Shown here: in pieces, positions 1-52,121 of the stretch | Position numbering within the stretch: the first letter of the stretch is position 1 | Layout of the letters: the number at the start of each line of letters is the position of its first letter | Origin: a virus | DNA: 64,000 nt | Strand: one strand, 5' to 3' | Virus record (IMG/VR): IMGVR_UViG_3300002143_000172 | Span: 32,001-96,000 of that record | Notes under the pieces: model-generated | Told to the model about the DNA's origin: nothing | Databases searched by the model: none | The model's input: the letters and a program-made list of their open reading frames with translations, nothing else | Made by a program: the position numbers and the translations under genes

Positions 1-240
1 ATGTTGTAGCAAACGGACAAGCTCTGCGGCCTGTTCATTACTACATCGCATTGCTTCTTCCAAACACTCATCGTGTTCTTCAATATCTAAAAATTGGAAT
101 TGATGGACTTCTTTGAATTGGTGCTTGGGAGTTGGAAAATCTCCGGGCGGATCACAAATTTGGATCAGCATGGAGTTAGGACCACAATCGTGGTGCCGAC
201 CTTGCTTAATATCAGATAACGCTACATTTTCAATCCACAT
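1..240 (-). CDS. Protein-tyrosine/dual-specificity phosphatase-like protein, runs off left edge (MWIENVALSDIKQGRHHDCGPNSMLIQICDP...)
   Basis: Open frame from ATG at 240 with AGGAG SD; N-terminal pattern resembles phage PTP-like proteins; catalytic motif would lie outside the window. Confidence 0.5.
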   Translation of the reverse strand, partial: MWIENVALSDIKQGRHHDCGPNSMLIQICDPPGDFPTPKHQFKEVHQFQFLDIEEHDECLEEAMRCSNEQAAELVRLLQH

Positions 241-700
241 ACCAAATCTCCTTAAATCCTTCTTCTTCAGTGGGCTCTTCCCAACTGGCAATCATACTGG
301 CAACAACATGTTCCGGAACGATCTTTCCAGACTCCCATCGACTGGATAGTCGACGAACAAGTTCTTTATGTTCAGGTGTACGAAACACCACAGCAATATG
401 TTCATAGTCTGGCAACATACGAAACTTCTTAGCCCGACTAGCAATCGTAGTGCTGGTTTGATCCCAAATAATATCATTGCCCATTTCTCGAATGGCTACA
501 ACATTTGCGGCCATTAAATTAACTGCCTTGGGCATGTATTCTGTAAAAATTTCCGAATAGGTTTTCTTCAAGCGAGCGGCTTCTAATTCAACCCAATAGT
601 CAGTCGATACGATATGACATCTCTTGGCCCATTCTTGATTGGCGATCCAGGTACTTTTGCCCGAACCAGGCACTCCGACCATCTGATAACATCTTAGCAT
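230..700 (-). CDS. AAA_33 / polynucleotide-kinase-like P-loop kinase
   Basis: GVPGSGKST Walker A, IIWDQT, R-rich lid; start moved to 700 because the longer ORF overlaps a tRNA. Confidence 0.75.
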   Translation of the reverse strand: MLRCYQMVGVPGSGKSTWIANQEWAKRCHIVSTDYWVELEAARLKKTYSEIFTEYMPKAVNLMAANVVAIREMGNDIIWDQTSTTIASRAKKFRMLPDYEHIAVVFRTPEHKELVRRLSSRWESGKIVPEHVVASMIASWEEPTEEEGFKEIWYVD

Positions 701-721
701 ATAATACTTTCTAAAATAGGT

Positions 722-796
722 TGGTCCCGCTAGGAGGAATCGAACCTCCATCTTAACCTTAGGAGTGTTTTATTCTATCCATTGAACTATAGCGAG
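722..796 (-). tRNA. tRNA-Arg(CCT)
   Basis: Cloverleaf, loop CTCCTAA, encoded CCA; anticodon stem weak. Confidence 0.75.
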
Positions 797-809
797 GGGT
801 TAATAACAC

Positions 810-838
810 ATTATAGCATGATAAATGATTTGTGTCAA
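810..838 (-). promoter_or_regulatory. sigma70-type promoter
   Basis: TTGACA-17-TATAAT. Confidence 0.8.
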
Positions 839-847
839 ATGAAAAAC

Positions 848-903
848 AGGATCCGCTTTTTTCAAAGTTGAAGTTTGATTTTTTAATTTGCTGAAAGGAT
901 CCT
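848..903 (-). ncRNA. Small structured RNA with anticodon-arm mimic, copy 1
   Basis: AGGATCC/GGATCCT closing stem, CAGCAA motif, TCAAA-CTTCAAC-TTTGA; paralogue at 10669-10726. Confidence 0.55.
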
Positions 904-908
904 AAAAC

Positions 909-985
909 TGGTTGCAGTGGCAGGATTCGAACCTGCGATTCCCGGCTTATGAGACCGGACGGATAGACCACTTCCATACACTGCG
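909..985 (-). tRNA. tRNA-Met(CAT), initiator-like
   Basis: CAT anticodon, C1:A72 mismatch, CCA. Confidence 0.85.
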
Positions 986-990
986 ATAAT

Positions 991-1024
991 TGGTGGAGGA
1001 GACAGGGATCGAACCGATATCTCC
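991..1024 (-). pseudogene. 3' half of a tRNA-Ala-like gene
   Basis: GGTTCGATCCC...CTCCACCA with no 5' half adjacent. Confidence 0.7.
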
Positions 1025-1536
1025 TAAATGGTGGAGGTTAAGGGGATCGAACCCTTAACTCTGCCTTGCAAAGGCAGCGTGTTCCCATTAGCACTAAACC
1101 CCCATTTGTATTCAACTGCTTGCTCTATTAAAGGAGCAACTTCGTCTTTCCATTTGCTATGTACCATTTCGTGATGATTTGGACATAATGGTATTAAGTT
1201 CTGCGGATCGTTATTATCGTGATTCTCATCTATATGATGTATTGCTACAATCTTATCAAATCCGCAAATAACACATTCGTGTTTCCAATGCTGTAAAGCA
1301 ATAGTCTTATAATGCGTAGCATTATCATTCCACCACTCTTGTCTATTGTTAGCACAACTACGACTACAGAACTTTGCTCGTTCATATGTCTTAGTTTTTA
1401 TGCGTCCTTCAAATATAAACTCTGTACCACAGCGTTCACATTCTTTAGTATGTTTTGCAACAGGACCAAATCGTTTATCGTTCTTTTCCTGTTGTAGGAG
1501 TTTGTATTGTTCAGTGTTATATTTTCCGTTGTTCAT
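1024..1536 (-). CDS. HNH homing endonuclease
   Basis: CxxC motifs, KFCSRSCAN, IHHID...N...NLIPLCPNHH; C-terminus reads through tRNA-Ala. Confidence 0.85.
   Translation of the reverse strand: MNNGKYNTEQYKLLQQEKNDKRFGPVAKHTKECERCGTEFIFEGRIKTKTYERAKFCSRSCANNRQEWWNDNATHYKTIALQHWKHECVICGFDKIVAIHHIDENHDNNDPQNLIPLCPNHHEMVHSKWKDEVAPLIEQAVEYKWGFSANGNTLPLQGRVKGSIPLTSTI
1029..1103 (-). tRNA. tRNA-Ala(TGC)
   Basis: G3:U70, loop TTTGCAA, CCA. Confidence 0.9.
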
Positions 1537-1567
1537 ACTTTATTTATCATAAAGTGCGAAATACGAA

Positions 1568-1596
1568 CGCTGTTCTATCAACTGAGCTACACCCCC
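1568..1596 (-). pseudogene. 5' half of a tRNA-Ala-like gene
   Basis: GGGGGTGTAGCTCAGTTGATAGAACAGCG then breaks into the HNH leader. Confidence 0.7.
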
Positions 1597-1637
1597 ATTT
1601 ATTCTTTTCTGCTAACAATCCTACAAGGGAACAAACT

Positions 1638-1714
1638 TGGTCGGAGTACAAGGATTCGAACCTTGGACCTCCTGGTCCCAAACCAGGCGCACTACCAGGC
1701 TGTGCTACACTCCG
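1638..1714 (-). tRNA. tRNA-Pro(TGG)
   Basis: Canonical cloverleaf, loop TTTGGGA. Confidence 0.92.
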
Positions 1715-1721
1715 AATATTC

Positions 1722-1796
1722 TGGTGGGTGATGAGAGGATCGAACTCCCGACAAACTGCGTGTAAGGCAGCGACTCTACCGCTGAGCTAATCACCC
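1722..1796 (-). tRNA. tRNA-Val(TAC)
   Basis: Cloverleaf, loop CTTACAC. Confidence 0.92.
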
Positions 1797-1801
1797 AAAT
1801 A

Positions 1802-1875
1802 TGGAGCGGGATGGGAGAATCGAACTCCCAACTTCAGTTTGGAAAACTGAGGTAATACCATTTTACGAATCCCGC
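1802..1875 (-). tRNA. tRNA-Gly(TCC)
   Basis: Cloverleaf, loop TTTCCAA, U73. Confidence 0.92.
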
Positions 1876-2016
1876 ACTCTCTAATCAAATACATCCATGC
1901 CGTTTTCCTAGAGGGTGGCCGTTCCCAATACCTAGACTACATCTAAGTTAAATGTGTTTTAAAAAAGTTTATCACAGATATTTAGTTTATCAATTTAGTG
2001 GTATATAAATATCTTG

Positions 2017-2697
2017 ATGAATATCGATCACAATCCTTATCAATGCTACGCCAATCAAGAATTGAAATGGCTCCCAATGGATACGGAAAATTTGTATAAA
2101 CGAAATCTCAAAGTTAACTATTTTCTTCTTGAAAAATTTAATTGGCTAAATTCAAATTTTACTTATAAATTTAACAGCCAAGGATTTCGTTGCGATGAGT
2201 TTACTAACAGTCCTTCTATTGTTTTTTTAGGATGTAGTATAACAGTAGGCATTGGAATACCTGTAGAAACAACCTGGGCAAGTTTAGTATCTAATCAATT
2301 AAATCTTTCTTGTTATAACTTAGGTATAGGCGGCTCATCAAACAATACTGCATTTCGATTAGCACATATATGGTTAAAAAAAATTAAACCTAAAGTGGTT
2401 GTATTTTGTCAAACCTATCCAGAAAGATTAGAAGTGTTTAACGAAAATGGAATAATATCTAATATAGCATCGGATTGCGGTGAGTTTTATAATCACTGGT
2501 TGTCCAATGAAAACAACAGCGCATTAAACCAAATTAAAAACAGGTTAGCAATTCAACAGTTATGCAATTCTTTTGATATTAAATTTGTGCATACCAGTGT
2601 GCATAATTTTGAATTTATTGATCAAGCAAGAGACCTGGCACATCCAGGAATTACATCAAATCAAAAGTTTTCGAAGTTAGTGCTAGAACTGATATAG
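2017..2697 (+). CDS. SGNH-like hypothetical protein
   Basis: FLGCSITVG and DLAHPG motifs; TAAATA 5 nt before ATG. Confidence 0.6.
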   Translation: MNIDHNPYQCYANQELKWLPMDTENLYKRNLKVNYFLLEKFNWLNSNFTYKFNSQGFRCDEFTNSPSIVFLGCSITVGIGIPVETTWASLVSNQLNLSCYNLGIGGSSNNTAFRLAHIWLKKIKPKVVVFCQTYPERLEVFNENGIISNIASDCGEFYNHWLSNENNSALNQIKNRLAIQQLCNSFDIKFVHTSVHNFEFIDQARDLAHPGITSNQKFSKLVLELI

Positions 2698-2704
2698 TTA
2701 TAAA

Positions 2705-2910
2705 AGTGTTACTGCCACTTCCACCACAGAAGCCCAATAACTGAGTAGTTACCCTGTCCATAACATTTATTCTTATGGGATGGCGTTAGACCACACCCTA
2801 GACAGTTCTCGGTATTCCCTAAAGAGGAACCGTAAGGTCAAGTTCTAGTGTACCCCCTGGTCTCTCGTTACAGGGACGCTCTTTTATTTACGGCAAAGAG
2901 TAAACCGGGT
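2705..2910 (-). ncRNA. Putative ~200-nt structured ncRNA
   Basis: GC-richer non-coding tract directly 3' of tRNA-Thr with several hairpins. Confidence 0.45.
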
Positions 2911-2915
2911 TATTC

Positions 2916-2989
2916 TGGTGCCCCTTGACAGAATCGAACTGCCATCAACGGATTACAAAACCATTGTATTACCATTATACTAAAGGGGC
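2916..2989 (-). tRNA. tRNA-Thr(TGT)
   Basis: Cloverleaf, loop TTTGTAA. Confidence 0.9.
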
Positions 2990-3017
2990 CTTAAGTTTTT
3001 TGTAACACTTCATTATT

Positions 3018-3587: not shown

Positions 3588-3645
3588 ATAATAAAATACA
3601 TTGTAGCAGGATATTTATATCTTGTCAACCTGCTTAAAACAAAAT

Positions 3646-3745: not shown

Positions 3746-4321
3746 ATGAACTTTAACATCTCTGTAGATACACAGTATGGCATAATGCTTAGTGGCGGTA
3801 TTGATAGTGCTATATTGTTCTATCTGTTAATTAAAGAGGAACCAAAAATAAGACTCCAACCGTTTACTATTCCCAAAGTTGACGGCGCATACTTATATGC
3901 TGATCCGCTCATTGATTATTTTAATAATAAATTTAACTTAACAATTCCACACACGATTAAAGTAGGTGATCCGACTTTACATCACACAAAACAGGGTCAA
4001 AGTGGATATACTGATATTCGAAAGTTTTATAAAAATATACAGATCGTATTCTGTGCTCTTAACGCAGTTCCTTTAGAATTACAAGACGGTCGTCATCCTA
4101 TAAGGCTGATGCACGGACCTACTAACCTTAAATTGCCATTTGTTAATATGTTCAAGGATCAAATTCTTCAAATTATGTATGATGAAGGGCAAACTGATCT
4201 TATTGATCTCACCCATTCGTGTACAGAAAGAACTGTGGGACGATGTAATCATTGTTGGCAATGCGGTGAACGCAGTTGGGCATTTAATAAACTAAACAAA
4301 GTTGATACCGGAACAAAATAA
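3746..4321 (+). CDS. QueC-like PP-loop ATPase
   Basis: SGGIDS PP-loop; C-terminal SC...CNHCWQC Zn motif. Confidence 0.7.
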   Translation: MNFNISVDTQYGIMLSGGIDSAILFYLLIKEEPKIRLQPFTIPKVDGAYLYADPLIDYFNNKFNLTIPHTIKVGDPTLHHTKQGQSGYTDIRKFYKNIQIVFCALNAVPLELQDGRHPIRLMHGPTNLKLPFVNMFKDQILQIMYDEGQTDLIDLTHSCTERTVGRCNHCWQCGERSWAFNKLNKVDTGTK

Positions 4322-4323
4322 CA

Positions 4324-4397
4324 TGGTGCCCGGAGCCGGACTCGAACTTGTGATAAAGGCTTATCAAGCCTCCGTTATACCGTTTAACTACAGAGCT
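4324..4397 (-). pseudogene. Chimeric tRNA: 5' Ile(GAT) joined to a Leu-type 3' end at the T-loop
   Basis: Acceptor and T stems do not pair; junction at GTTCGA. Confidence 0.7.
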
Positions 4398-4409
4398 GTC
4401 TTACTAACT

Positions 4410-4708
4410 TGGTGCTCCGAGCCGGAATCGAACCGGCACGCCATTACAGCGAGGGATTTTCTTACCACTATAGTTTTCACTACCTTTGCAGTTTGGTGGT
4501 CTGGACTATACCTTCATCATAGCATTACTGCCTTAGATGCTCGCCGTCTAGTCTCTACACGTTCAAAGTAATTTCTTACTAAGCTTCGCTCGGTATTAGC
4601 ATGTTAAAGCCTTCACCGAATTTGACGAGTTCTACTCCCGGCATTTCCACCGGGGCACTCAAATTTTACTCTCAAGTCCCTTGTGTCTACCTATTTCACC
4701 ATCAGAGC
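4410..4708 (-). tRNA. tRNA-Leu(TAA) split by a group I intron (exons 4674-4708 and 4410-4460)
   Basis: Spliced loop GGGA-CTT|AAAA-TCCC; acceptor GCTCTGA/TCGGAGC. Confidence 0.9.
4461..4673 (-). mobile_element. Group I intron, 213 nt, no ORF
   Basis: P/Q/R/S-like motifs AAATTCGGTGAA, AATACCGAGC, GTAGAGACTAGACGG, AAGGTATAGTCC; inserted after a U and ends in G. Confidence 0.9.
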
Positions 4709-5293
4709 AATTAATCTTTTCATTCTTTCGTAGTTGCCGCCTTTTGCAGCTAGTCCTACTTCTAATAATGCTTGTCGTATGTTACTACATTTTGCATATG
4801 CTGTCAATAGCTCTTGGTCAGTTACTTTAACTTTCCCCGAGTTGATATTTCTACCTCTCCATGTTGGAGTTAATGCATGACAGTTACAACATAATAGTTT
4901 AAGATTTTCCCTTGTATTATGTTTGTTATCACCGTCGACATGCTCTAATTCTAACGGTATAGGACTGGACTGCCACTCGGTCAATCCACACCCTTCACAT
5001 TGGTAACCTCGCTCTTGTATAAGAGCCGATTTGTGATTACCAATACCATCGTACTCAAATTTTGTATTGGAATAATTACCTTTATTCCAATTCATTTTAG
5101 TTTTGGTGTCCGCTGGCAAATTTGCATACCTGATTTTTGCAGGCAAACGATTACCTAACTCGTATACTGCTTTAGTTCTTTCTGAGTTAATTGCTTTAAG
5201 TACACTGCATCCTGCGGGTCTGGCGCAACAGCAATTTTTACCATTTTTTAAAACAAACTTAGATGCAGTGTTGCATCCGTAATCACATAACAT
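4691..5293 (-). CDS. HNH homing endonuclease
   Basis: CEGCG...LELEHVDGDNKHN...NLKLLCCNCH; stop codon lies inside tRNA-Leu exon 1. Confidence 0.88.
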   Translation of the reverse strand: MLCDYGCNTASKFVLKNGKNCCCARPAGCSVLKAINSERTKAVYELGNRLPAKIRYANLPADTKTKMNWNKGNYSNTKFEYDGIGNHKSALIQERGYQCEGCGLTEWQSSPIPLELEHVDGDNKHNTRENLKLLCCNCHALTPTWRGRNINSGKVKVTDQELLTAYAKCSNIRQALLEVGLAAKGGNYERMKRLIALMVK

Positions 5294-5492: not shown

Positions 5493-5521
5493 ATTATAGC
5501 ATACTACTGCAGGTGTGTCAA
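5493..5521 (-). promoter_or_regulatory. sigma70-type promoter
   Basis: TTGACA-17-TATAAT. Confidence 0.8.
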
Positions 5522-6503: not shown

Positions 6504-6532
6504 ATTATATACTTATCCGTGGTACTTGTCAA
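6504..6532 (-). promoter_or_regulatory. sigma70-type promoter
   Basis: TTGACA-17-TATAAT. Confidence 0.75.
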
Positions 6533-6616: not shown

Positions 6617-6711
6617 TGAGTCTCTAGTATAACATACTATTTTGTTTATGTCAATTCTGCTCATATAAATAGCTTTATGAATGTTATTTTTTGGAACGGC
6701 GGAATTAAAAT

Positions 6712-7485: not shown

Positions 7486-8130
7486 TTATTTGCTGTGCAG
7501 TAAATTTACAAACTCTAACAATAGAGCATGATGTCTGCGATTATGCCAATGCTCCGGCATCCATGTATAACTGTCATACCAAAATTTTTCACTTTCTAAA
7601 TGACAGCCCATTAAACCTAAATTTCCCTGTATTATTGCCATAGGGTCTCCGTTGGCATAGGTAGCAACGGTAGTAAACTTTGTTTGATCTCCAATGAAAC
7701 AACATCCGTCATTGTAGAACATCTTGTCCGACTGTCCATTCCAGGTAACTGATATTGCTTTAGTATGTGGTCTATGAGTATCTGCGGTAGGTTGCTTGTA
7801 ATACTGTACAGCGTCTACATCCTCAAGCAGATCAAAGTAATAATGATTGGCCCAATATGCGCCCATACATATTCCTAGATACTTGCCCCCACTATTAACA
7901 AACTCTTTAATAAGATCGGCGTTATTTTTTAGCAGATAATCGTAGCTATCGGAATTTCCAAAACCACCGGGAAATGCAACTATATCAACATCATTGAAAA
8001 AATCTTCTTCTAGCTCGTGCTTGGTAAAGATTTTAAAATCATAATGGCTTTTAAGTGCTTGCATGATACCATTGCCCGACTGTACAGAACACATCGGTTG
8101 ATGTATGAACAGTGCAATCTTAGGTTTCAT
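7486..8130 (-). CDS. BPL_N / class I glutamine amidotransferase-like protein
   Basis: FPGG, GGKYLGICMGAY, HLE; start MKPKIAL after TAAATA. Confidence 0.8.
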   Translation of the reverse strand: MKPKIALFIHQPMCSVQSGNGIMQALKSHYDFKIFTKHELEEDFFNDVDIVAFPGGFGNSDSYDYLLKNNADLIKEFVNSGGKYLGICMGAYWANHYYFDLLEDVDAVQYYKQPTADTHRPHTKAISVTWNGQSDKMFYNDGCCFIGDQTKFTTVATYANGDPMAIIQGNLGLMGCHLESEKFWYDSYTWMPEHWHNRRHHALLLEFVNLLHSK

Positions 8131-8143
8131 AACTTTATTTATA

Positions 8144-8219
8144 TGGCACCCCCGGAGAGAATCGAACTCCCATTCCTGCGTTCGTAGCACAGTGTATGAA
8201 TCCATTATACGACAGGGGT
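8144..8219 (-). tRNA. tRNA-Arg(ACG)
   Basis: Loop CTACGAA. Confidence 0.9.
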
Positions 8220-8231
8220 ATAAATAATTTT

Positions 8232-9437
8232 ATGAAAAACTGGGAAAATGTTAAAAAACTGCACATAGAAATAAGTTCTCAATGTAACGCTGTATGTCCT
8301 ATGTGTACTCGGTATCCAACCGCTAGTTACTTTGAGCACCCGCATATACAGAAAGACTGGATGTGGACTGTAGACACAGTAAAACAACGACTACCTAAAG
8401 AAGATTTAATAGGTATAACTTCATACCTTATCAATGGCACCTTTGGAGATTTTATTATGAACTCCGAAGCAATAGAAATAATACAGTATCTAAATGAATG
8501 TTCACCCGATGCTAGTCTTTATATCAATACCAACGGTTCTGCTAGAAACGCAAGTTGGTGGAAAGAACTTGCAAAGATTCCTAATGTAGTAGTAAATTTT
8601 GCAATCGACGGATTAGAAGATACTCATTCACTTTACAGGAGAAACACTAGCTGGTCTAAGATTATTGACAATGCTAAAACATTTATAAATTCGGGCGGTC
8701 ATGCAGAATGGACAATGATTATATTTGAGCATAATAAGCATCAAGTTGATGCTTGCTTTAATCTCAGCACAACTATTGGATTTAAATCATTTACCAGCCG
8801 AAATAGCGACCGAATCAATACTGATGTTCTTGATAAAAATGGCCTTAGTAAATACGGAATAAAATCTGCCGATCCTACCATTACCAGTTATCGATCCTAC
8901 CATCAATTACAGTGGAAAGAAACTATATTAAAGAAAGGTCAGTTTTACGCAAAGCAAACATACCAAACCGGCGCATTGCCTAGTATAGACTCATGCTCGA
9001 GTATTTCGGAAAGTTCGGTATACATAGGATCAAATTGGTCCGTAATGCCGTGTTGTTTCTTAGGAAACATTACGATGGGTAGGCAGACTGATCATAGGTG
9101 GGCAAATTTCTTAGATGCACTCACTAACGCAGGATTTTCCTTAACCGACTTTGATGCAACAAGTACCAAAACAGTTCGTCAAGTATTTGAGCAAGGGTTT
9201 GACTGGGTATACAATCGCATATTAACCGACAATGCGTTAGTTGCTTGTTCAACAAATTGTCATCCTGTGGACAGTGCATTTCAGAGAAGTATGGCAAGTC
9301 GTCAACATGAAACCCTTAAAAATATGGTGCCGCCCCCAGGGATCGAACCTGGTTCCTCGGTGCTTCAAACCGGTGCTATGACCACATCAGCTAAAGCGGC
9401 ATTGGTACCAGCGGAGGGTATCGAACCCTCTCACTGA
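8232..9437 (+). CDS. Radical SAM protein (SPASM-like C-terminus)
   Basis: CNAVCPMC, NTNG, IDG, MPCC; tail runs antisense through tRNA-Phe. Confidence 0.85.
   Translation: MKNWENVKKLHIEISSQCNAVCPMCTRYPTASYFEHPHIQKDWMWTVDTVKQRLPKEDLIGITSYLINGTFGDFIMNSEAIEIIQYLNECSPDASLYINTNGSARNASWWKELAKIPNVVVNFAIDGLEDTHSLYRRNTSWSKIIDNAKTFINSGGHAEWTMIIFEHNKHQVDACFNLSTTIGFKSFTSRNSDRINTDVLDKNGLSKYGIKSADPTITSYRSYHQLQWKETILKKGQFYAKQTYQTGALPSIDSCSSISESSVYIGSNWSVMPCCFLGNITMGRQTDHRWANFLDALTNAGFSLTDFDATSTKTVRQVFEQGFDWVYNRILTDNALVACSTNCHPVDSAFQRSMASRQHETLKNMVPPPGIEPGSSVLQTGAMTTSAKAALVPAEGIEPSH
9325..9400 (-). tRNA. tRNA-Phe(GAA)
   Basis: Loop TTGAAGC. Confidence 0.88.
9403..9434 (-). pseudogene. Isolated tRNA 3' half
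   Basis: T arm plus GCTGGTACCA, no 5' half. Confidence 0.65.
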
Positions 9438-10487: not shown

Positions 10488-10579
10488 TGGCGGAAGACGG
10501 AGGAGTCGAACCCCATCCCATTTCTGAGAACCCAGTTTTCAAGGCTGGTCGGCGCACCAACGCACCTGCATCATCTTCC
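10488..10579 (-). tRNA. tRNA-Ser(TGA), 8/4 allo-tRNA/selC-like fold
   Basis: 8-bp acceptor, 6-bp D stem with 4-nt loop, 4-bp T stem, G73, long variable arm. Confidence 0.8.
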
Positions 10580-10585
10580 ATAACT

Positions 10586-10659
10586 TGGTCCTCTCGTATG
10601 GAATCGAACCATCATCTACCGGTTATCAGCCGATTGCTCTACCATTGAGCTACAAGAGG
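10586..10659 (-). tRNA. tRNA-Ile(GAT)
   Basis: Loop CTGATAA. Confidence 0.9.
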
Positions 10660-10668
10660 AAATAAAAC

Positions 10669-10726
10669 AGGATGCATTTTTGGCTTTTTTTCAAGAAAAG
10701 ATTTTTAAATTTGCTGGAAGCATCCT
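10669..10726 (-). ncRNA. Small structured RNA with anticodon-arm mimic, copy 2
   Basis: AGGATGC/GCATCCT stem, CAGCAA motif, CTTTT-CTTGAAA-AAAAG. Confidence 0.55.
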
Positions 10727-10732
10727 AAAACT

Positions 10733-10807
10733 TGGCGGTCTGTGGGGGAATCGAACCCCCGTAAGTGGATAGACAATCCACAGTAATAACCTCTATACGA
10801 ACAGACC
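10733..10807 (-). tRNA. tRNA-Asp(GTC)
   Basis: Loop TTGTCTA, G73. Confidence 0.88.
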
Positions 10808-11178: not shown

Positions 11179-11721
11179 TTAGACGACAAGTAATTCTTGC
11201 CATCTTATAACTTTTGATTCATCATAAACATCACGCTTACCTTTTCTTGCGTTTTCGCTTGCCGGTAAGTACTGTAAATTGTCTTGATGATGTAGTCCTC
11301 CGTTTGCTAACGGAATCCTATGATCAACTTGATATCCTTCCGGAACAAATTGATAAATTTTTCTGATTAAATCTAAATCAGCATTGTCAGGTATAGCATT
11401 TCTTTTCCGTGCTCTGTAAGCATAGACATTTGCTTTATTACCTGCTCTTTTATGTTCTTCAGTCACTCTGCCTCTATGGTCCCAGTAAGCATTTCTAGCT
11501 TCTGAAATTTTAGCAGAATGTTCTTGTGTCCTAGGAGGAAGTTTTACACCCTTTCTGTTCGGCATTTTAGACTTACCAGAAACAATAGCTTTCTTAACAC
11601 CGTTAGCAATTTTTTCTTTAGTATCTGCTGTTCTAATTCTACTGTTAGCACATGCTCTTGAGCAAAATTTTCCAGATCCAAAAGATCCATTGTGTGTAGT
11701 GTTACATTTCAGACATTTCAT
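11179..11721 (-). CDS. HNH homing endonuclease
   Basis: KFCSRACAN, NUMOD-like basic region, VDHRIPL..GGLH...NLQYL..SEN..K. Confidence 0.88.
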   Translation of the reverse strand: MKCLKCNTTHNGSFGSGKFCSRACANSRIRTADTKEKIANGVKKAIVSGKSKMPNRKGVKLPPRTQEHSAKISEARNAYWDHRGRVTEEHKRAGNKANVYAYRARKRNAIPDNADLDLIRKIYQFVPEGYQVDHRIPLANGGLHHQDNLQYLPASENARKGKRDVYDESKVIRWQELLVV

Positions 11722-12237: not shown

Positions 12238-12390
12238 CTAACGACCTCCGCAGAGTATCTCTCGCTTTCTCATAGTTTCATAACTTTCTACAGCTCTTGT
12301 TAACTTGTTCTGAATAAGTTGTTTAACCTGTTCAGGAGTTAGCGTATGCTGTCGAAGCCAATCTACTTCTTTAATCTTTTTCTCTATCAT
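12238..12390 (-). CDS. 50-aa hypothetical protein (MIEKKIKEVDWLRQHTLTPEQVKQLI...)
   Basis: AGGAG SD, clean ORF. Confidence 0.55.
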   Translation of the reverse strand: MIEKKIKEVDWLRQHTLTPEQVKQLIQNKLTRAVESYETMRKREILCGGR

Positions 12391-12763
12391 TTCTCTCCTG
12401 CTCTACAAATTGTTCAAATCTTGTTGCTAGGTCATCATTTGCAGGATCTGTTGGTATGTTGTATGCGTGTATTCTGCGATGGCAGTTAGCACACACTACA
12501 ACACACTTTCTTAGTTCCCTTAAAACAGAACTTATACTTTTTGTTATTTGTCTAATAACCCCTACCTCTTTCTGGCTAGGATCACTATGATGGAAATCTA
12601 AACAAGCAGAGTCGGTCTCGCCGCATCTACTACATTTTAGTGTTCCTTTCCATTCCTGGAAAACATCAAGTAATTCTTTGTATCTGTTTTTTTGATACTC
12701 TAACAACCTTTCTTTGTTCTTTTCGTAAAACTCTTTTCTCTTCTGTTTGTGTTCTTGTTCCAT
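12371..12763 (-). CDS. HNH endonuclease
   Basis: CSRCG...LDFHH.DP..K...KCVVVCANCHR; AGGAG SD and TATAAATA late promoter. Confidence 0.88.
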   Translation of the reverse strand: MEQEHKQKRKEFYEKNKERLLEYQKNRYKELLDVFQEWKGTLKCSRCGETDSACLDFHHSDPSQKEVGVIRQITKSISSVLRELRKCVVVCANCHRRIHAYNIPTDPANDDLATRFEQFVEQERNDREKD

Positions 12764-12829
12764 AAAGTATCTCCTGATACTGTATTTATACAAAAACACA
12801 TTGTTTTTTGTAATATTTTTAAGGACTAC

Positions 12830-51497: not shown

Positions 51498-51547
51498 TTA
51501 AAATTTCCTCATTGCAGACTATTTACCGTGTATGTATTACACAGAAA

Positions 51548-51573
51548 AAGAAAGCACCCGAAGGTGCTTTCTT
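51548..51573 (-). terminator. Terminator after tmRNA coding piece
   Basis: AAGAAAGCACC-TTCG-GGTGCTTTCTT. Confidence 0.85.
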
Positions 51574-51574
51574 G

Positions 51575-51916
51575 CTATTTTCGGTTACAAGGTATAACTA
51601 CCTCGTGGAGGTTACGCCGCTAGGCGAACTTCTCCAAAAAATGCGTCGTTTGCATTTATGGTTTTTGCTTGATTTACAGTCATCGCCTACTGTGTTGCCT
51701 CTTTCGCTATCTCACCATGTCGAAACCGGTCGGGCCCATTAGGGAATATATTATCTTGGCTCCTGCTGTTAGGCTATCAACACTCAAGTTCCGCCCTCAT
51801 CATAATCTATGATTAGTTTGGGCTTCAGATTGGATCATAATATACTCTCTGGTGGACCCGAGGGGAATTGAACCCCCGTCCACGATGCCTTCACTACGAA
51901 GGAATTACAACAATTC
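51575..51916 (-). ncRNA. ssrA: Circularly permuted (two-piece) tmRNA; tag ANDAFFGEVRLAA at 51612-51653
   Basis: Acceptor piece ...GGGGGTTCAATTCCCCTCGGGTCCACCA (ends 51850) precedes coding piece GGGCCCGACCGGTTTCGAC (starts 51737); G3:U pair. Confidence 0.9.
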
Positions 51917-51917
51917 T

Positions 51918-52121
51918 TTACTGCGGCTGAATATTAGCCGCTTGCAAACCTTTTTGTCCTTGTACTACATCGAACGATACTGTTTGATTCTCTGTTAGAA
52001 CTTTGAAGCCCGAAGTTTGAATTTCACTGTAGTGGGCAAATAAATCTGCACCACCTTTGTCTGGAGTAATAAACCCAAAACCTTTGGTTTCATTAAACCA
52101 TTTTACTTTACCTGTTGCCAT
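51918..52121 (-). CDS. Cold-shock protein
   Basis: GKVKWFN..KGFGFI, FAHYS. Confidence 0.95.

What the first reader, a model, noticed from the sequence alone, without database searches (positions are those of the whole stretch)
848..903. Repeated ~57-nt RNA displaying an isolated anticodon arm (second copy 10669-10726): possible decoy
Both copies start a few nt after a tRNA CCA and share GTTTTAGGAT(C/G)CTT(T/C)CAGCAAATT...G(G/C)ATCCTGTTTT. The closing stem shows a compensatory change (AGGATCC/GGATCCT vs AGGATGC/GCATCCT). Each encloses a different perfect 5-bp stem with a 7-nt loop of anticodon form C-U-NNN-A: TCAAA-CTTCAAC-TTTGA (UCA) and CTTTT-CTTGAAA-AAAAG (UGA). There is no acceptor CCA or T arm. 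Inference: decoys for anticodon nucleases or modification enzymes, or ligands of a tRNA-repair/RNA-binding protein through CAGCAA.
Basis: partly seen in the sequence, partly recalled or inferred. Interest (0 to 1): 0.75.

Follow-up and report, generated by a model that had tools for sequence, protein, structure and literature searches.

The report
Anticodon-arm RNAs partnering Ro60-like protein
The two repeats are genes for ~60-nt RNAs that carry a conserved "handle" plus a copy of a tRNA anticodon arm, and they belong to an uncatalogued RNA family that travels with a Ro60-shaped phage protein, so they are most likely that protein's partner RNAs.

Summary
Both elements lie on the minus strand, 4-5 nt after a tRNA CCA, with a covarying 8-bp closing helix, unpaired CAGCAA, and a 5-bp/7-nt hairpin of anticodon form.

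- **More copies:** the same phage has at least three more just outside the window. A 57-nt copy (loop CUUGUAA) sits between a promoter and the ribosome-binding site of a DUF2828+DUF7788 gene. Members of 155 nt and about 228 nt follow that gene.
- **The protein:** its AlphaFold model (pLDDT 91.9) matches Ro60 over its full length.
- **Recurrence:** all 35 related viral loci carry the element directly upstream of this gene. Distant ones enlarge it into a full tRNA-like cloverleaf. FelixO1-like, Listeria, Campylobacter and KVP40 phages also have the handle.
- **Anticodon display:** copies in relatives' tRNA arrays show loops for GGU, UUU, CGA and GUU.
- **Databases:** Rfam has no family for it. 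The best sub-threshold match is Dictyostelium Class I RNA (28 bits, cut-off 41.5).

My reading is Y-RNA-like partners of a Ro60-like protein, excised from tRNA transcripts. Binding and any decoy role are inferred, not shown. This scan has reported the same family on more than 30 other genomes. A 2024 preprint only guessed that such RNAs exist.

The parts
847..904 (-). Mini handle RNA, copy 1 (58 nt helix to helix), anticodon-form loop CUUCAAC (triplet UCA)
   Evidence: Sequence. CM R1 scores 58.2 bits. RF01414 scores 28.1 bits, below its cut-off. An identical copy is in relative L004.
897..904 (-). Copy 1, 5' strand of the closing helix (UAGGAUCC)
   Evidence: Pairs with 847-854. Helix is 100% paired across 16 homologues, with 3 of 8 pairs changed on both sides.
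888..893 (-). Copy 1, unpaired CAGCAA motif, 3 nt after the helix
   Evidence: Invariant in alignments A1 and A3. Shared with members in FelixO1-like, Listeria, Campylobacter and KVP40 phages.
862..878 (-). Copy 1 anticodon-arm mimic: UCAAA-CUUCAAC-UUUGA
   Evidence: 5 bp plus a 7-nt Y-U-NNN-R-N loop. Arises in 0.09% of shuffles. Inner helix covaries at 4 of 5 pairs.
847..854 (-). Copy 1, 3' strand of the closing helix (GGAUCCUG), followed by UUUUUC
10668..10727 (-). Mini handle RNA, copy 2 (60 nt), anticodon-form loop CUUGAAA (triplet UGA)
   Evidence: Sequence. CM R1 scores 55.4 bits. RF01414 scores 27.8 bits.
10711..10716 (-). Copy 2, CAGCAA motif
10684..10700 (-). Copy 2 anticodon-arm mimic: CUUUU-CUUGAAA-AAAAG
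   Evidence: Arises in 0.5% of shuffles. Its loop equals that of the neighbouring long Ser/Sec-like tRNA at 10492-10579.
909..985 (-). tRNA-Met directly upstream of copy 1; its 3' processing would free the 5' side of the RNA
   Evidence: ARAGORN and Rfam.
810..838 (-). Perfect sigma-70-type promoter (TTGACA-17-TATAAT) starting 8 nt after copy 1; copy 1 ends a transcription unit
   Evidence: Belongs to a family of 4-5 such promoters in the array.
10733..10807 (-). tRNA-Asp directly upstream of copy 2
10586..10659 (-). tRNA-Ile 8 nt downstream of copy 2; RNase P cleavage at its 5' end would set the 3' end of the RNA (inferred)
   Evidence: Relatives show the same tRNA-element-tRNA packing.
230..751 (-). 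Polynucleotide-kinase-like P-loop kinase, in the same minus-strand gene row as the Ro60-like gene
   Evidence: Pfam AAA_33, E 1.4e-18. phrog_505 polynucleotide kinase, E 1.7e-9.
1..291 (-). 5' part of a DSP/PTP-type phosphatase gene that runs out of the window. Beyond it, outside the window, lie a metallophosphoesterase gene, a promoter, mini copy 3, the DUF2828 Ro60-like gene, and handle RNAs of 155 nt and about 228 nt (phage record 28865-31424).

Best explanation
The two elements are genes for small non-coding RNAs of a widespread, uncatalogued family.

**Design.** Each RNA has a constant "handle": an 8-bp helix joining the two ends (5' UAGG-N4 / N4-CCUG 3'), followed after 3 nt by single-stranded CAGCAA, with U after the 3' CCUG. 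The handle holds a variable module. In this phage the module is cut down to one tRNA anticodon stem-loop.

**Role (inferred).** The handle is the binding site for the phage's Ro60-like ring protein (DUF2828 + vWA/MIDAS), encoded 2.2 kb away. The RNAs would then be to this protein what Y RNAs, especially the tRNA-mimicking YrlA, are to Ro60.

**Making the RNA (inferred).** Copies 1 and 2 are transcribed as part of tRNA precursors. The enzymes that trim the flanking tRNAs would release them.

**The displayed arm (inferred).** It would let the particle engage a factor that reads tRNA anticodon loops, such as a host anticodon nuclease or a modification enzyme, either to sequester it or to bring it to the ring.

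**Shown:** the structure by covariation, the family, the gene linkage and the Ro60 fold. **Not shown:** binding, processing and the role of the arm.
For: 1. **Structure.** The closing helix is 100% paired in 16 distinct homologues, with 3 pairs changed on both sides and 0 of 500 shuffles as good. The inner hairpin is 97.8% paired in 9 copies, with 4 of 5 pairs changed on both sides.
2. **Linkage in this phage.** All five handle-bearing elements in the 159-kb record lie in the tRNA/DUF2828 region. One sits between a promoter and the gene's ribosome-binding site, and two sit right after its stop codon.
3. **Linkage elsewhere.** All 35 related viral loci (51-98% protein identity) carry the element directly upstream of the gene. 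FelixO1-like (4 members), Listeria LP-048 (3), Campylobacter CP81 (1) and KVP40 (1) have it beside the gene or in the adjoining tRNA array.
4. **Protein.** Pfam gives DUF2828 + DUF7788, and PHROGs gives phrog_850 'RNA-binding protein'. The AF2 model has pLDDT 91.9. Foldseek matches Ro60 over its full length: 2i91 TM 0.66-0.67, 1yvp 0.65, phage phiLo Ro60 0.55, E 4e-8 to 1e-6. The MIDAS residues are invariant.
5. **tRNA mimicry.** Distant loci expand the same handle RNA. One form is a cloverleaf with a D-like arm, a CUUGUAA anticodon arm and a GGUUCGAAUCC T arm. Another has a permuted T-arm/acceptor/D-arm module, as in YrlA.
6. **Varying anticodons.** Relatives' tRNA-array copies show loops UUGGUAU, CUUUUAA, CUCGAAA and CUGUUAA. 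CUUUUAA and CUGUUAA are identical to this phage's own tRNA-Lys and tRNA-Asn loops.
7. **Context.** A polynucleotide-kinase-like kinase and two phosphatases sit in the same gene row, and an RNA ligase elsewhere in the record.
8. **Published support.** The family member Bas63 gp130 is Ro60-like and counters the ppl defence. Its authors guessed that some neighbouring 'tRNA' genes are Y RNAs (10.1101/2024.10.10.617714).
9. **Weak hint of expression.** Contigs from four lake metatranscriptomes cover the locus, with very unequal contig depths: about 90 upstream, 800-1500 over the DUF2828 unit and thousands over the 228-nt member.
Against: - No experiment or model here shows that the protein binds these RNAs. 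The link is by gene neighbourhood only.
- Single-sequence folding is no better than shuffles (z -1.03 and -0.45). The RNAs are A/U-rich, and the inner stems are weak.
- My simple scan found no handle element near the DUF2828 gene in 3 of 7 named phages (Citrobacter Ci1, mycobacteriophage LeBron, Bacillus vB_BcoS-136).
- In the closest relatives, the copy next to the gene often has a 4-bp stem and a 7-9-nt loop that is not of strict anticodon form. The anticodon display is therefore not a family-wide rule.
- The Ro60-binding motifs of known Y RNAs (GGUCCGA, GNCGAA) are absent.
- The metatranscriptome data are contigs. They cannot show ends, strand or a discrete 60-nt species.
Confidence: 0.65

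Rival explanations
1. The elements act only in cis, as punctuation of the tRNA operons. They would be processing sites for RNase E or RNase III, or weak terminators, that separate tRNA sub-clusters. No stable trans-acting RNA and no dedicated protein partner would be involved.
For: Both window copies sit tightly between tRNAs and have U-rich flanks (GUUUU before, UGUUUU after). Copy 1 ends 8 nt before a perfect promoter, that is, at the end of a transcription unit.
Against: The terminator scan does not call them, because the loop is 42-44 nt. The U-run is not conserved in FelixO1-like members. The same handle occurs in the 5' leader and after the stop of the DUF2828 gene, away from tRNAs. A mere cleavage site does not explain three things: an invariant unpaired CAGCAA, a covarying inner hairpin, and interchangeable tRNA-like modules.
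Confidence: 0.1
2. The handle is chiefly an autoregulatory operator. The DUF2828 protein would bind the copy in its own 5' leader to control translation, since the ribosome-binding site lies 12 nt after the helix. The copies in the tRNA array would only titrate the protein.
For: In all 35 related loci the element abuts the ribosome-binding site (CCUG followed at once or within about 12 nt by AAAGGAG/AAAGGAA). Metatranscriptome contig depth changes within copy 3 (weak).
Against: This does not explain members placed after the gene, members inside tRNA arrays 10-30 kb away in relatives, or the elaborate tRNA-like and anticodon-arm modules. It is compatible with the main explanation rather than exclusive of it.
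Confidence: 0.1
3. They are true homologues of Dictyostelium Class I RNAs. The two would be one RNA family shared by phages and social amoebae, not merely a look-alike.
For: RF01414 is the best Rfam match of the elements, over the full model length. Scores are 28.1, 27.8 and 27.3 bits, and these are the top three hits in the whole 159-kb record (E 2.5e-4 to 4.1e-4 for that single-family search). A relative scores 31.6 bits. Shared design: about 60 nt, a short covarying end-to-end stem, U-U-(A/C/U)-CAGCAA next to the 5' strand, and 3' CUGU (PMC7919456). DUF2828+DUF7788 proteins exist in eukaryotes such as fungi, plants, green algae and a diatom.
Against: All scores are below Rfam's cut-off of 41.5. 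With all 4227 families over 12.5 kb the hits fall above E 0.05. Both genomes are A/U-rich. I could not establish that any dictyostelid encodes a DUF2828 protein. The published direct Class I binder is an RRM protein, Rnp1A. Convergence on a short motif is possible.
Confidence: 0.25
4. They are decaying remnants of tRNA genes (pseudo-tRNAs) without function.
For: They lie in a tRNA array that also holds tRNA fragments, for example window 987-1025, and they keep an anticodon arm.
Against: Compensatory changes keep both helices intact across copies and genomes. The non-tRNA handle is conserved across distant phage families.
Confidence: 0.03

Closest known systems
Bacterial and phage Ro60 (Rsr) with Y RNAs of the YrlA type (Chen et al. 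2014, PMC4201824; Rfam RF02553), including Thermus phage phiLo Ro60 with Yrl1/Yrl2 (PMC12135203)
   Same: Small RNAs encoded next to a ring-shaped HEAT-repeat + vWA protein. The 5' and 3' ends pair in a terminal stem. The rest of the RNA mimics tRNA, and some relatives here even have the YrlA-like permuted T-arm/acceptor/D-arm order. Several RNA genes occur per locus.
   Different: The protein belongs to another sequence family (DUF2828/DUF7788). It has no TROVE hit and no sequence match to any solved Ro60. The handle is helix + CAGCAA + CCUGU rather than GNCGAA/GGUCCGA. There is no Rfam YrlA match. The window's copies keep only an anticodon arm, a part that YrlA lacks.
Class I RNAs of dictyostelid social amoebae (Rfam RF01414; Kjellin et al. 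2021, PMC7919456)
   Same: Length of about 60 nt. A short covarying stem joins the ends. A conserved single-stranded motif ending in CAGCAA follows the 5' strand directly. The middle is variable and the 3' end is CUGU. It is the best Rfam match of all three mini copies.
   Different: Scores of 27-32 bits are below the cut-off of 41.5. This is a phage, not a eukaryote. Promoters are bacterial and the copies are embedded among tRNAs, with no DUSE element. The known Class I binder is an RRM protein. A DUF2828 protein in dictyostelids was not established here.
Bas63 (Escherichia phage JohannRWettstein) gp130, a Ro60-like counter-defence protein against ppl (PhageMaP preprint, 10.1101/2024.10.10.617714)
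   Same: The protein is described there as Ro60-like, with its gene directly upstream of a tRNA stretch. That is the arrangement I see in a FelixO1-like phage, whose DUF2828 protein is 38-39% identical to ours. The authors speculate that some neighbouring tRNA genes are Y RNAs.
   Different: The preprint identifies no RNA, motif or structure. Here the RNAs are defined, and they are not among the annotated tRNAs. I did not compare our protein with gp130 itself.
tRNA anticodon stem-loop
   Same: A 5-bp stem with a 7-nt loop of form C/U-U-NNN-A-N. Loops in relatives are identical to the phage's own tRNA-Lys (CUUUUAA) and tRNA-Asn (CUGUUAA) loops.
   Different: There is no acceptor stem, CCA, D arm or T arm. 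The stems are A/U-rich, unlike the G/C-rich stems of the phage's real tRNAs.

Membership tests
Y RNA / YrlA (Rfam RF00019, RF02553) | Encoded beside the gene of a Ro60-type ring protein | tested here: met
   Copy 3 lies between the promoter and the ribosome-binding site of the DUF2828 gene. Two larger members follow its stop codon. The window copies lie 2.2 and 12 kb away in the adjoining tRNA array. The protein has the Ro60 fold.
Y RNA / YrlA (Rfam RF00019, RF02553) | Ro60-binding sequence in the terminal helix (GGUCCGA in animals, GNCGAAN0-1G in YrlA/YrlB) | tested here: not met
   No such motif is in any of the three mini copies (sequences; motif from PMC4201824). The conserved unpaired motif is CAGCAA.
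Y RNA / YrlA (Rfam RF00019, RF02553) | Match to the Rfam covariance model | tested here: not met
   No Y_RNA or YrlA hit on the elements at the gathering threshold or at E up to 10.
Y RNA / YrlA (Rfam RF00019, RF02553) | Terminal stem formed by the 5' and 3' ends, enclosing a variable or tRNA-like module | tested here: met
   Covarying 8-bp helix. Modules range from one hairpin to a full or permuted tRNA-like domain in relatives.
Y RNA / YrlA (Rfam RF00019, RF02553) | Physical binding to the Ro60-type protein | not testable with these tools
   No tool on hand models or assays an RNA-protein complex.
Dictyostelid Class I RNA (Rfam RF01414) | 42-65 nt with a short (6-bp) covarying stem joining the 5' and 3' ends | tested here: met
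   57-60 nt with an 8-bp helix, of which the inner 4 bp vary by compensatory change. Definition from PMC7919456.
Dictyostelid Class I RNA (Rfam RF01414) | Conserved 11-nt motif directly after the 5' strand (Rfam consensus CCUUACAGCAA) | tested here: inconclusive
   The copies read (C)CUUUCAGCAA, (G)CUUCCAGCAA and (G)CGUUCAGCAA. CAGCAA is invariant, the preceding U is mostly kept and the rest differs.
Dictyostelid Class I RNA (Rfam RF01414) | 3' end CUGU, whose C pairs with the conserved 5' G | tested here: met
   All copies end ...CCUGU, and the C pairs with G of the 5' UAGG.
Dictyostelid Class I RNA (Rfam RF01414) | Score at or above Rfam's gathering cut-off (41.5 bits) | tested here: not met
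   28.1, 27.8 and 27.3 bits. A relative scores 31.6 bits.
Dictyostelid Class I RNA (Rfam RF01414) | DUSE promoter about 60 nt upstream; occurrence in Dictyostelia | tested here: not met
   This is a phage record. The elements are driven by sigma-70-type promoters or embedded in tRNA transcripts.
tRNA (Rfam RF00005) | Cloverleaf with acceptor stem, D arm and T arm | tested here: not met
   Neither ARAGORN nor Rfam calls the elements. The sequence holds no T-loop or acceptor end.
tRNA (Rfam RF00005) | Anticodon arm: 5-bp stem and 7-nt loop with U33 and purine 37 | tested here: met
   Loops are CUUCAAC, CUUGAAA and CUUGUAA on 5-bp Watson-Crick stems. Relatives carry GGU, UUU, CGA and GUU.
Ro60 / TROVE protein (for the neighbouring gene) | Sequence match to the TROVE domain or to a solved Ro60 | tested here: not met
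   Pfam gives DUF2828 + DUF7788 only. A profile of 63 homologues hits no PDB sequence at E up to 0.01.
Ro60 / TROVE protein (for the neighbouring gene) | Helical-repeat ring followed by a vWA domain with a MIDAS motif | tested here: met
   Foldseek gives full-length matches to Ro60 structures, TM 0.55-0.67, probability 1.00. The C-terminal part matches vWA domains. D270, S272, S274, T342 and D374 are invariant.
Intrinsic terminator | G+C-rich hairpin with a 3-8-nt loop followed by a U-run | tested here: not met
   The scan does not call them, because the loop is 42-44 nt. A U-run follows copies 1 and 2 but not FelixO1-like members.

The most novel reading that the evidence does not exclude
The mini RNAs are a set of handle-tagged baits. 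Each displays the anticodon loop of one tRNA: Ser-UGA, Thr-UGU and UCA here, and Lys-UUU, Asn-GUU, Thr-GGU and Ser-CGA in relatives. The Ro60-like ring would use them to capture, sense or neutralise host anticodon nucleases or other enzymes that read anticodon loops. That would make this a modular counter-defence particle whose specificity is changed by swapping the displayed loop. The same handle in Dictyostelium Class I RNAs would then point to a related particle in eukaryotes.
Probability: 0.2. Interest if true: 0.88.

Novelty: new variant of a known kind. Interest (0 to 1): 0.72.

Why it matters
- **A partner for an orphan protein family.** DUF2828 is large: 6330 cluster representatives at 50% identity and 711 phage records. 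It also occurs in fungi, plants and algae. No RNA partner is known for it. One member is already shown to defeat a bacterial defence system.
- **A testable particle.** A defined partner RNA with a recognisable handle would turn that observation into a Ro60/Y-RNA-like particle that can be tested in cultivable phages of the FelixO1/Bas63, Listeria P100 and KVP40 types.
- **A clear hypothesis for this lineage.** Its bare anticodon arms, with varying triplets, give a concrete idea about tRNA-directed defence and counter-defence.
- **A lead on an old puzzle.** The resemblance to Dictyostelium Class I RNAs offers a concrete lead on RNAs whose function has been open since 2004.
- **Annotation.** These elements are currently either unannotated or covered by spurious small ORFs, for example CP81 ORF140.

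Tried and rejected
- **Megablast against phage records:** window 600-3000 gave only tRNA matches. No close cultured relative was found.
- **Single-sequence folding:** does not single the elements out.
- **Rfam:** the gathering threshold gave nothing at the elements. No family matched the 155-nt and 228-nt members.
- **Model R1:** built from the mini forms, it does not recover the large members in the phage's own record at E up to 1. They were found by a handle-plus-complementarity script instead.
- **Dictyostelid DUF2828:** attempts to learn whether dictyostelids encode it gave no answer. The Atlas returned only viral clusters. The 'longer' homologue search gave fungi, plants, algae and a diatom but no amoeba. 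A protist query was swamped by low-complexity words. Paper searches for DUF2828, PF11443, UCP015417 and DdR-21 found nothing relevant. Avesson 2011 is not held.
- **RtcB:** no match in this 44%-complete record, so this is uninformative.
- **Metatranscriptome contigs:** they cover copy 1 only as part of long contigs of ordinary depth. They say nothing about a discrete small RNA.
- **Simple scan of named phages:** no handle element near the gene in Ci1, LeBron or vB_BcoS-136. Divergent handles may have been missed.
- **Literature search for ACAGCAA with tRNA:** nothing relevant.
- **Source of the arms:** I rejected the idea that the arms are copied from the phage's own tRNAs, because the stems differ entirely and only the loops agree.
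Full report
**What is in the window.** The window is part of a 159-kb freshwater phage record that is about 44% complete. Its first 12 kb hold a minus-strand array of some 30 tRNA genes, broken up by homing-endonuclease-like ORFs and strong promoters.

Both reported elements are real and lie on the minus strand:
- Copy 1 is 847-904. It starts 4 nt after the CCA of tRNA-Met and ends 8 nt before a perfect TTGACA-17-TATAAT promoter.
- Copy 2 is 10668-10727. It starts 5 nt after tRNA-Asp and ends 8 nt before tRNA-Ile.

The shared 24-nt motif is found twice, against none expected. Each RNA reads UAGG-N4, three nucleotides, CAGCAA, an A/U-rich linker, a 5-bp/7-nt hairpin, a linker, N4-CCUG, then U-rich sequence. 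The hairpins are UCAAA-CUUCAAC-UUUGA and CUUUU-CUUGAAA-AAAAG. A hairpin of this exact anticodon form arises in only 0.09% and 0.5% of shuffles of the variable parts. Minimum-free-energy folding alone does not distinguish the elements from shuffles, so the case rests on comparison.

**More copies, and the gene they accompany.** A search of the whole record found a third mini copy 1.3 kb outside the window. It has helix UAGGUUGC/GCAACCUG and hairpin UUCAA-CUUGUAA-UUGAA. It sits between a consensus promoter and the ribosome-binding site of a 463-aa ORF.

That ORF is DUF2828 (PF11443) plus DUF7788 (PF25043), and phrog_850 'RNA-binding protein'. A script that looks for CAGCAA bracketed by complementary strands found two further members directly after the stop codon of the same gene. 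One is 155 nt and the other about 228 nt. It found no credible member anywhere else in the 159 kb.

The gene row upstream encodes a polynucleotide-kinase-like kinase (window 230-751), a DSP/PTP-type phosphatase and a metallophosphoesterase. An Rnl-type RNA ligase lies elsewhere in the record.

**The protein has the Ro60 fold.**
- An AlphaFold2 model built on 63 homologues has mean pLDDT 91.9.
- Foldseek's 13 best matches are all Ro60 structures, aligned over the full length. These include Xenopus Ro60 (2i91 and 1yvp, TM 0.65-0.67), Thermus phage phiLo Ro60 (0.55) and human Ro60. vWA domains follow.
- The MIDAS residues are invariant in the family.
- By sequence the family is separate. There is no TROVE hit in Pfam and no PDB hit with a family profile.
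- The family is large: 6330 cluster representatives and 711 phage records. These include FelixO1-like, KVP40-like, Listeria, Staphylococcus, Campylobacter and cluster-L mycobacteriophages, where it is annotated 'Ro-like RNA binding protein'.
- It also occurs in fungi, plants, green algae and a diatom.

**The RNA travels with the gene.** All 35 related viral loci carry a handle element immediately upstream of the gene. These loci fall into two lineages, at 86-98% and 51-56% protein identity.

Across 16 distinct mini forms the closing helix is 100% paired, with three pairs changed on both sides. No shuffle and no slid register comes close.

The distant lineage has two tandem elements with the same handle:
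- An 81-nt form with three hairpins, the middle one UUUGA-CUUGUAA-UCAAA.
- A roughly 92-nt form that is a complete cloverleaf. The handle helix replaces the acceptor stem. A D-like arm, a UUUGU-CUUGUAA-ACAAA anticodon arm and a GGUUCGAAUCC T arm follow.

Other members of 112-134 nt carry a T arm, a closed acceptor-like hairpin and a D arm in the permuted order known from YrlA.

Named phages confirm the breadth:
- A FelixO1-like coliphage has four members after the gene among its tRNAs. Its handle is AGACC-N2/N2-GGUCUGG, and one member has a permuted tRNA-like core.
- Listeria LP-048 has three in tandem before the gene, with RtcB 1.3 kb downstream.
- Campylobacter CP81 has one before the gene, under an annotated 'hypothetical' ORF.
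- KVP40 has one after a tRNA-Ser.
- Three other phages gave nothing with my simple scan.

**The anticodon arm is real and varies.** I built a covariance model from the mini forms and searched five related long contigs. It found extra copies 15-30 kb from the gene. The three I checked against Rfam lie inside tRNA arrays, each packed between two tRNAs with the same 'CCA-GUUU-UAGG' junction.

Their hairpins are again 5 bp plus 7 nt. The loops are UUGGUAU, CUUUUAA (twice), CUCGAAA and CUGUUAA. Together with this phage's UCA, UGA and UGU, the displayed triplets therefore include GGU, UUU, CGA and GUU. In nine such copies the inner helix is 97.8% paired, and four of five pairs changed on both sides.

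CUUUUAA and CUGUUAA are identical to the loops of this phage's own tRNA-Lys and tRNA-Asn, while the stems are unrelated and A/U-rich.

It is not a family-wide rule. Gene-proximal copies in the closest relatives often have 4-bp stems and 7-9-nt loops.

**Comparison with known RNAs.** Rfam holds no family for these elements.

Known Y RNAs bind Ro60 through GGUCCGA or GNCGAA (PMC4201824; PMC12135203). That motif is absent here, so these are not Y RNAs in the strict sense, though the design is the same.

The best Rfam match is unexpected: RF01414, the Class I RNA of Dictyostelium.
- The match runs over the full model length, at 28.1, 27.8 and 27.3 bits.
- In a single-family search these are the three best matches in the whole record (E 2.5e-4 to 4.1e-4), and the next hit scores 20.8.
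- A relative reaches 31.6 bits.
- The published definition of Class I RNAs fits the phage RNAs point for point (PMC7919456). They are about 60 nt, with a short covarying end-to-end stem, an 11-nt motif ending in CAGCAA next to the 5' strand, a variable middle and a 3' CUGU.

Against this, the scores stay below the curated cut-off of 41.5. They lose significance when all families are searched over 12.5 kb. I also could not establish whether dictyostelids encode a DUF2828 protein. I therefore treat homology as an open possibility of about 25%.

**Expression.** Four lake-water metatranscriptome runs hold contigs at least 90% alike across the locus. One contig spans from inside copy 3 through the DUF2828 gene and the 155-nt member, at depth of about 800-1500. 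The contig over the upstream genes and copy 1 has depth of about 90-150. Short contigs over the 228-nt member reach thousands.

Such unequal depths within 4.4 kb are not what carried-over DNA would give. They fit the strong promoter before copy 3 and an abundant stable RNA after the gene. But contigs cannot show ends, strand or a discrete small RNA, so this is only a hint.

**Mechanism and confidence.** I commit to the following reading, with about 65% confidence as a whole.
- These are partner RNAs of the Ro60-like DUF2828 protein and are recognised through the handle.
- Copies 1 and 2 are made from tRNA precursors by the enzymes that trim the neighbouring tRNAs.
- The variable module presents tRNA features, here a bare anticodon arm, to some factor that reads tRNAs.

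That the particle acts as a decoy or trap for anticodon nucleases is attractive, for three reasons: the RNA-repair-type neighbours, the large tRNA complement of the phage, and the published counter-defence role of the family member Bas63 gp130 against ppl. It is untested, and I give it about 20%. The rivals score lower for the reasons listed under each: pure processing or termination signal, pure autoregulatory operator, and tRNA debris.

**Prior knowledge.** The PhageMaP preprint noted the Ro60-like fold of Bas63 gp130 and guessed that some neighbouring 'tRNA' genes might be Y RNAs. It defined no RNA. A jumbo-phage survey mentions TROVE proteins with a tRNA-like partner only in general terms.

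Earlier reports of this scan describe the same handle family beside DUF2828 genes on more than 30 other genomes, and also note the Class I resemblance. I had reached the same reading before opening them, and I re-tested its main points on this DNA.

What this window adds is a lineage in which the variable module is reduced to an anticodon arm, with a varying triplet and a covarying stem.

Noticed in passing
window 987-1025 (-): Between tRNA-Ala and tRNA-Met lies a tRNA 'minihelix'-like piece. It is a hairpin with a T-loop (UUCGAUC) followed by UCCACCA, with no D arm or anticodon arm. Neither ARAGORN nor Rfam calls it.
   Followed up: no
window 4316-4683 (-): A group I intron (RF00028, 50.2 bits, at the cut-off) sits at 4480-4683, directly beside tRNA-like halves at 4316-4443. 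One of them is a weak tRNA hit (4327-4396, 27 bits). This may be an intron-split tRNA gene that ARAGORN missed.
   Followed up: no
window 10492-10579 (-): A long tRNA-like gene matches the tRNA-Sec model below its cut-off (35.4 bits, cut-off 47). ARAGORN does not call it. Its anticodon loop region reads CUUGAAA, the same loop as mini copy 2, which lies 90 nt upstream.
   Followed up: partly
window 51521-51949 (-): The phage encodes a permuted (two-piece) tmRNA. RF01850 scores 139 bits and RF04321 132 bits. The tag peptide is ANDAFFGEVRLAA.
   Followed up: no
window 810-838, 5493-5521, 6504-6532 (-); also 3600-3628, 6626-6654: A family of perfect or near-perfect TTGACA-17-TATAAT promoters, all on the minus strand, divides the tRNA array into sub-operons.
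   Followed up: partly
window 3746-4321 (+), 7486-8205 (-), 8196-9437 (+): QueC-like, glutamine-amidotransferase-like and radical-SAM ORFs are embedded in the tRNA array. They may form a 7-deazaguanine (queuosine/archaeosine-type) pathway.
   Followed up: no
window 1024-1536, 4691-5293, 11179-11721, 12371-12799 (-): Several HNH-endonuclease-like ORFs are scattered between tRNA sub-clusters.
   Followed up: no
outside the window: L039 15865-16092 (-) and 16101-16255 (-), i.e. phage record 28865-29255: Two large handle-bearing RNAs (about 228 nt and 155 nt) follow the DUF2828 stop codon. After them come a clean terminator, a promoter and another tRNA. No Rfam family matches. Short metatranscriptome contigs over the 228-nt RNA have very high depth.
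   Followed up: partly
L055 3858-3995 (Campylobacter phage CP81): The annotated 'hypothetical protein ORF140' overlaps a 79-nt handle element directly before the DUF2828 gene. It is probably a mis-called ORF.
   Followed up: no
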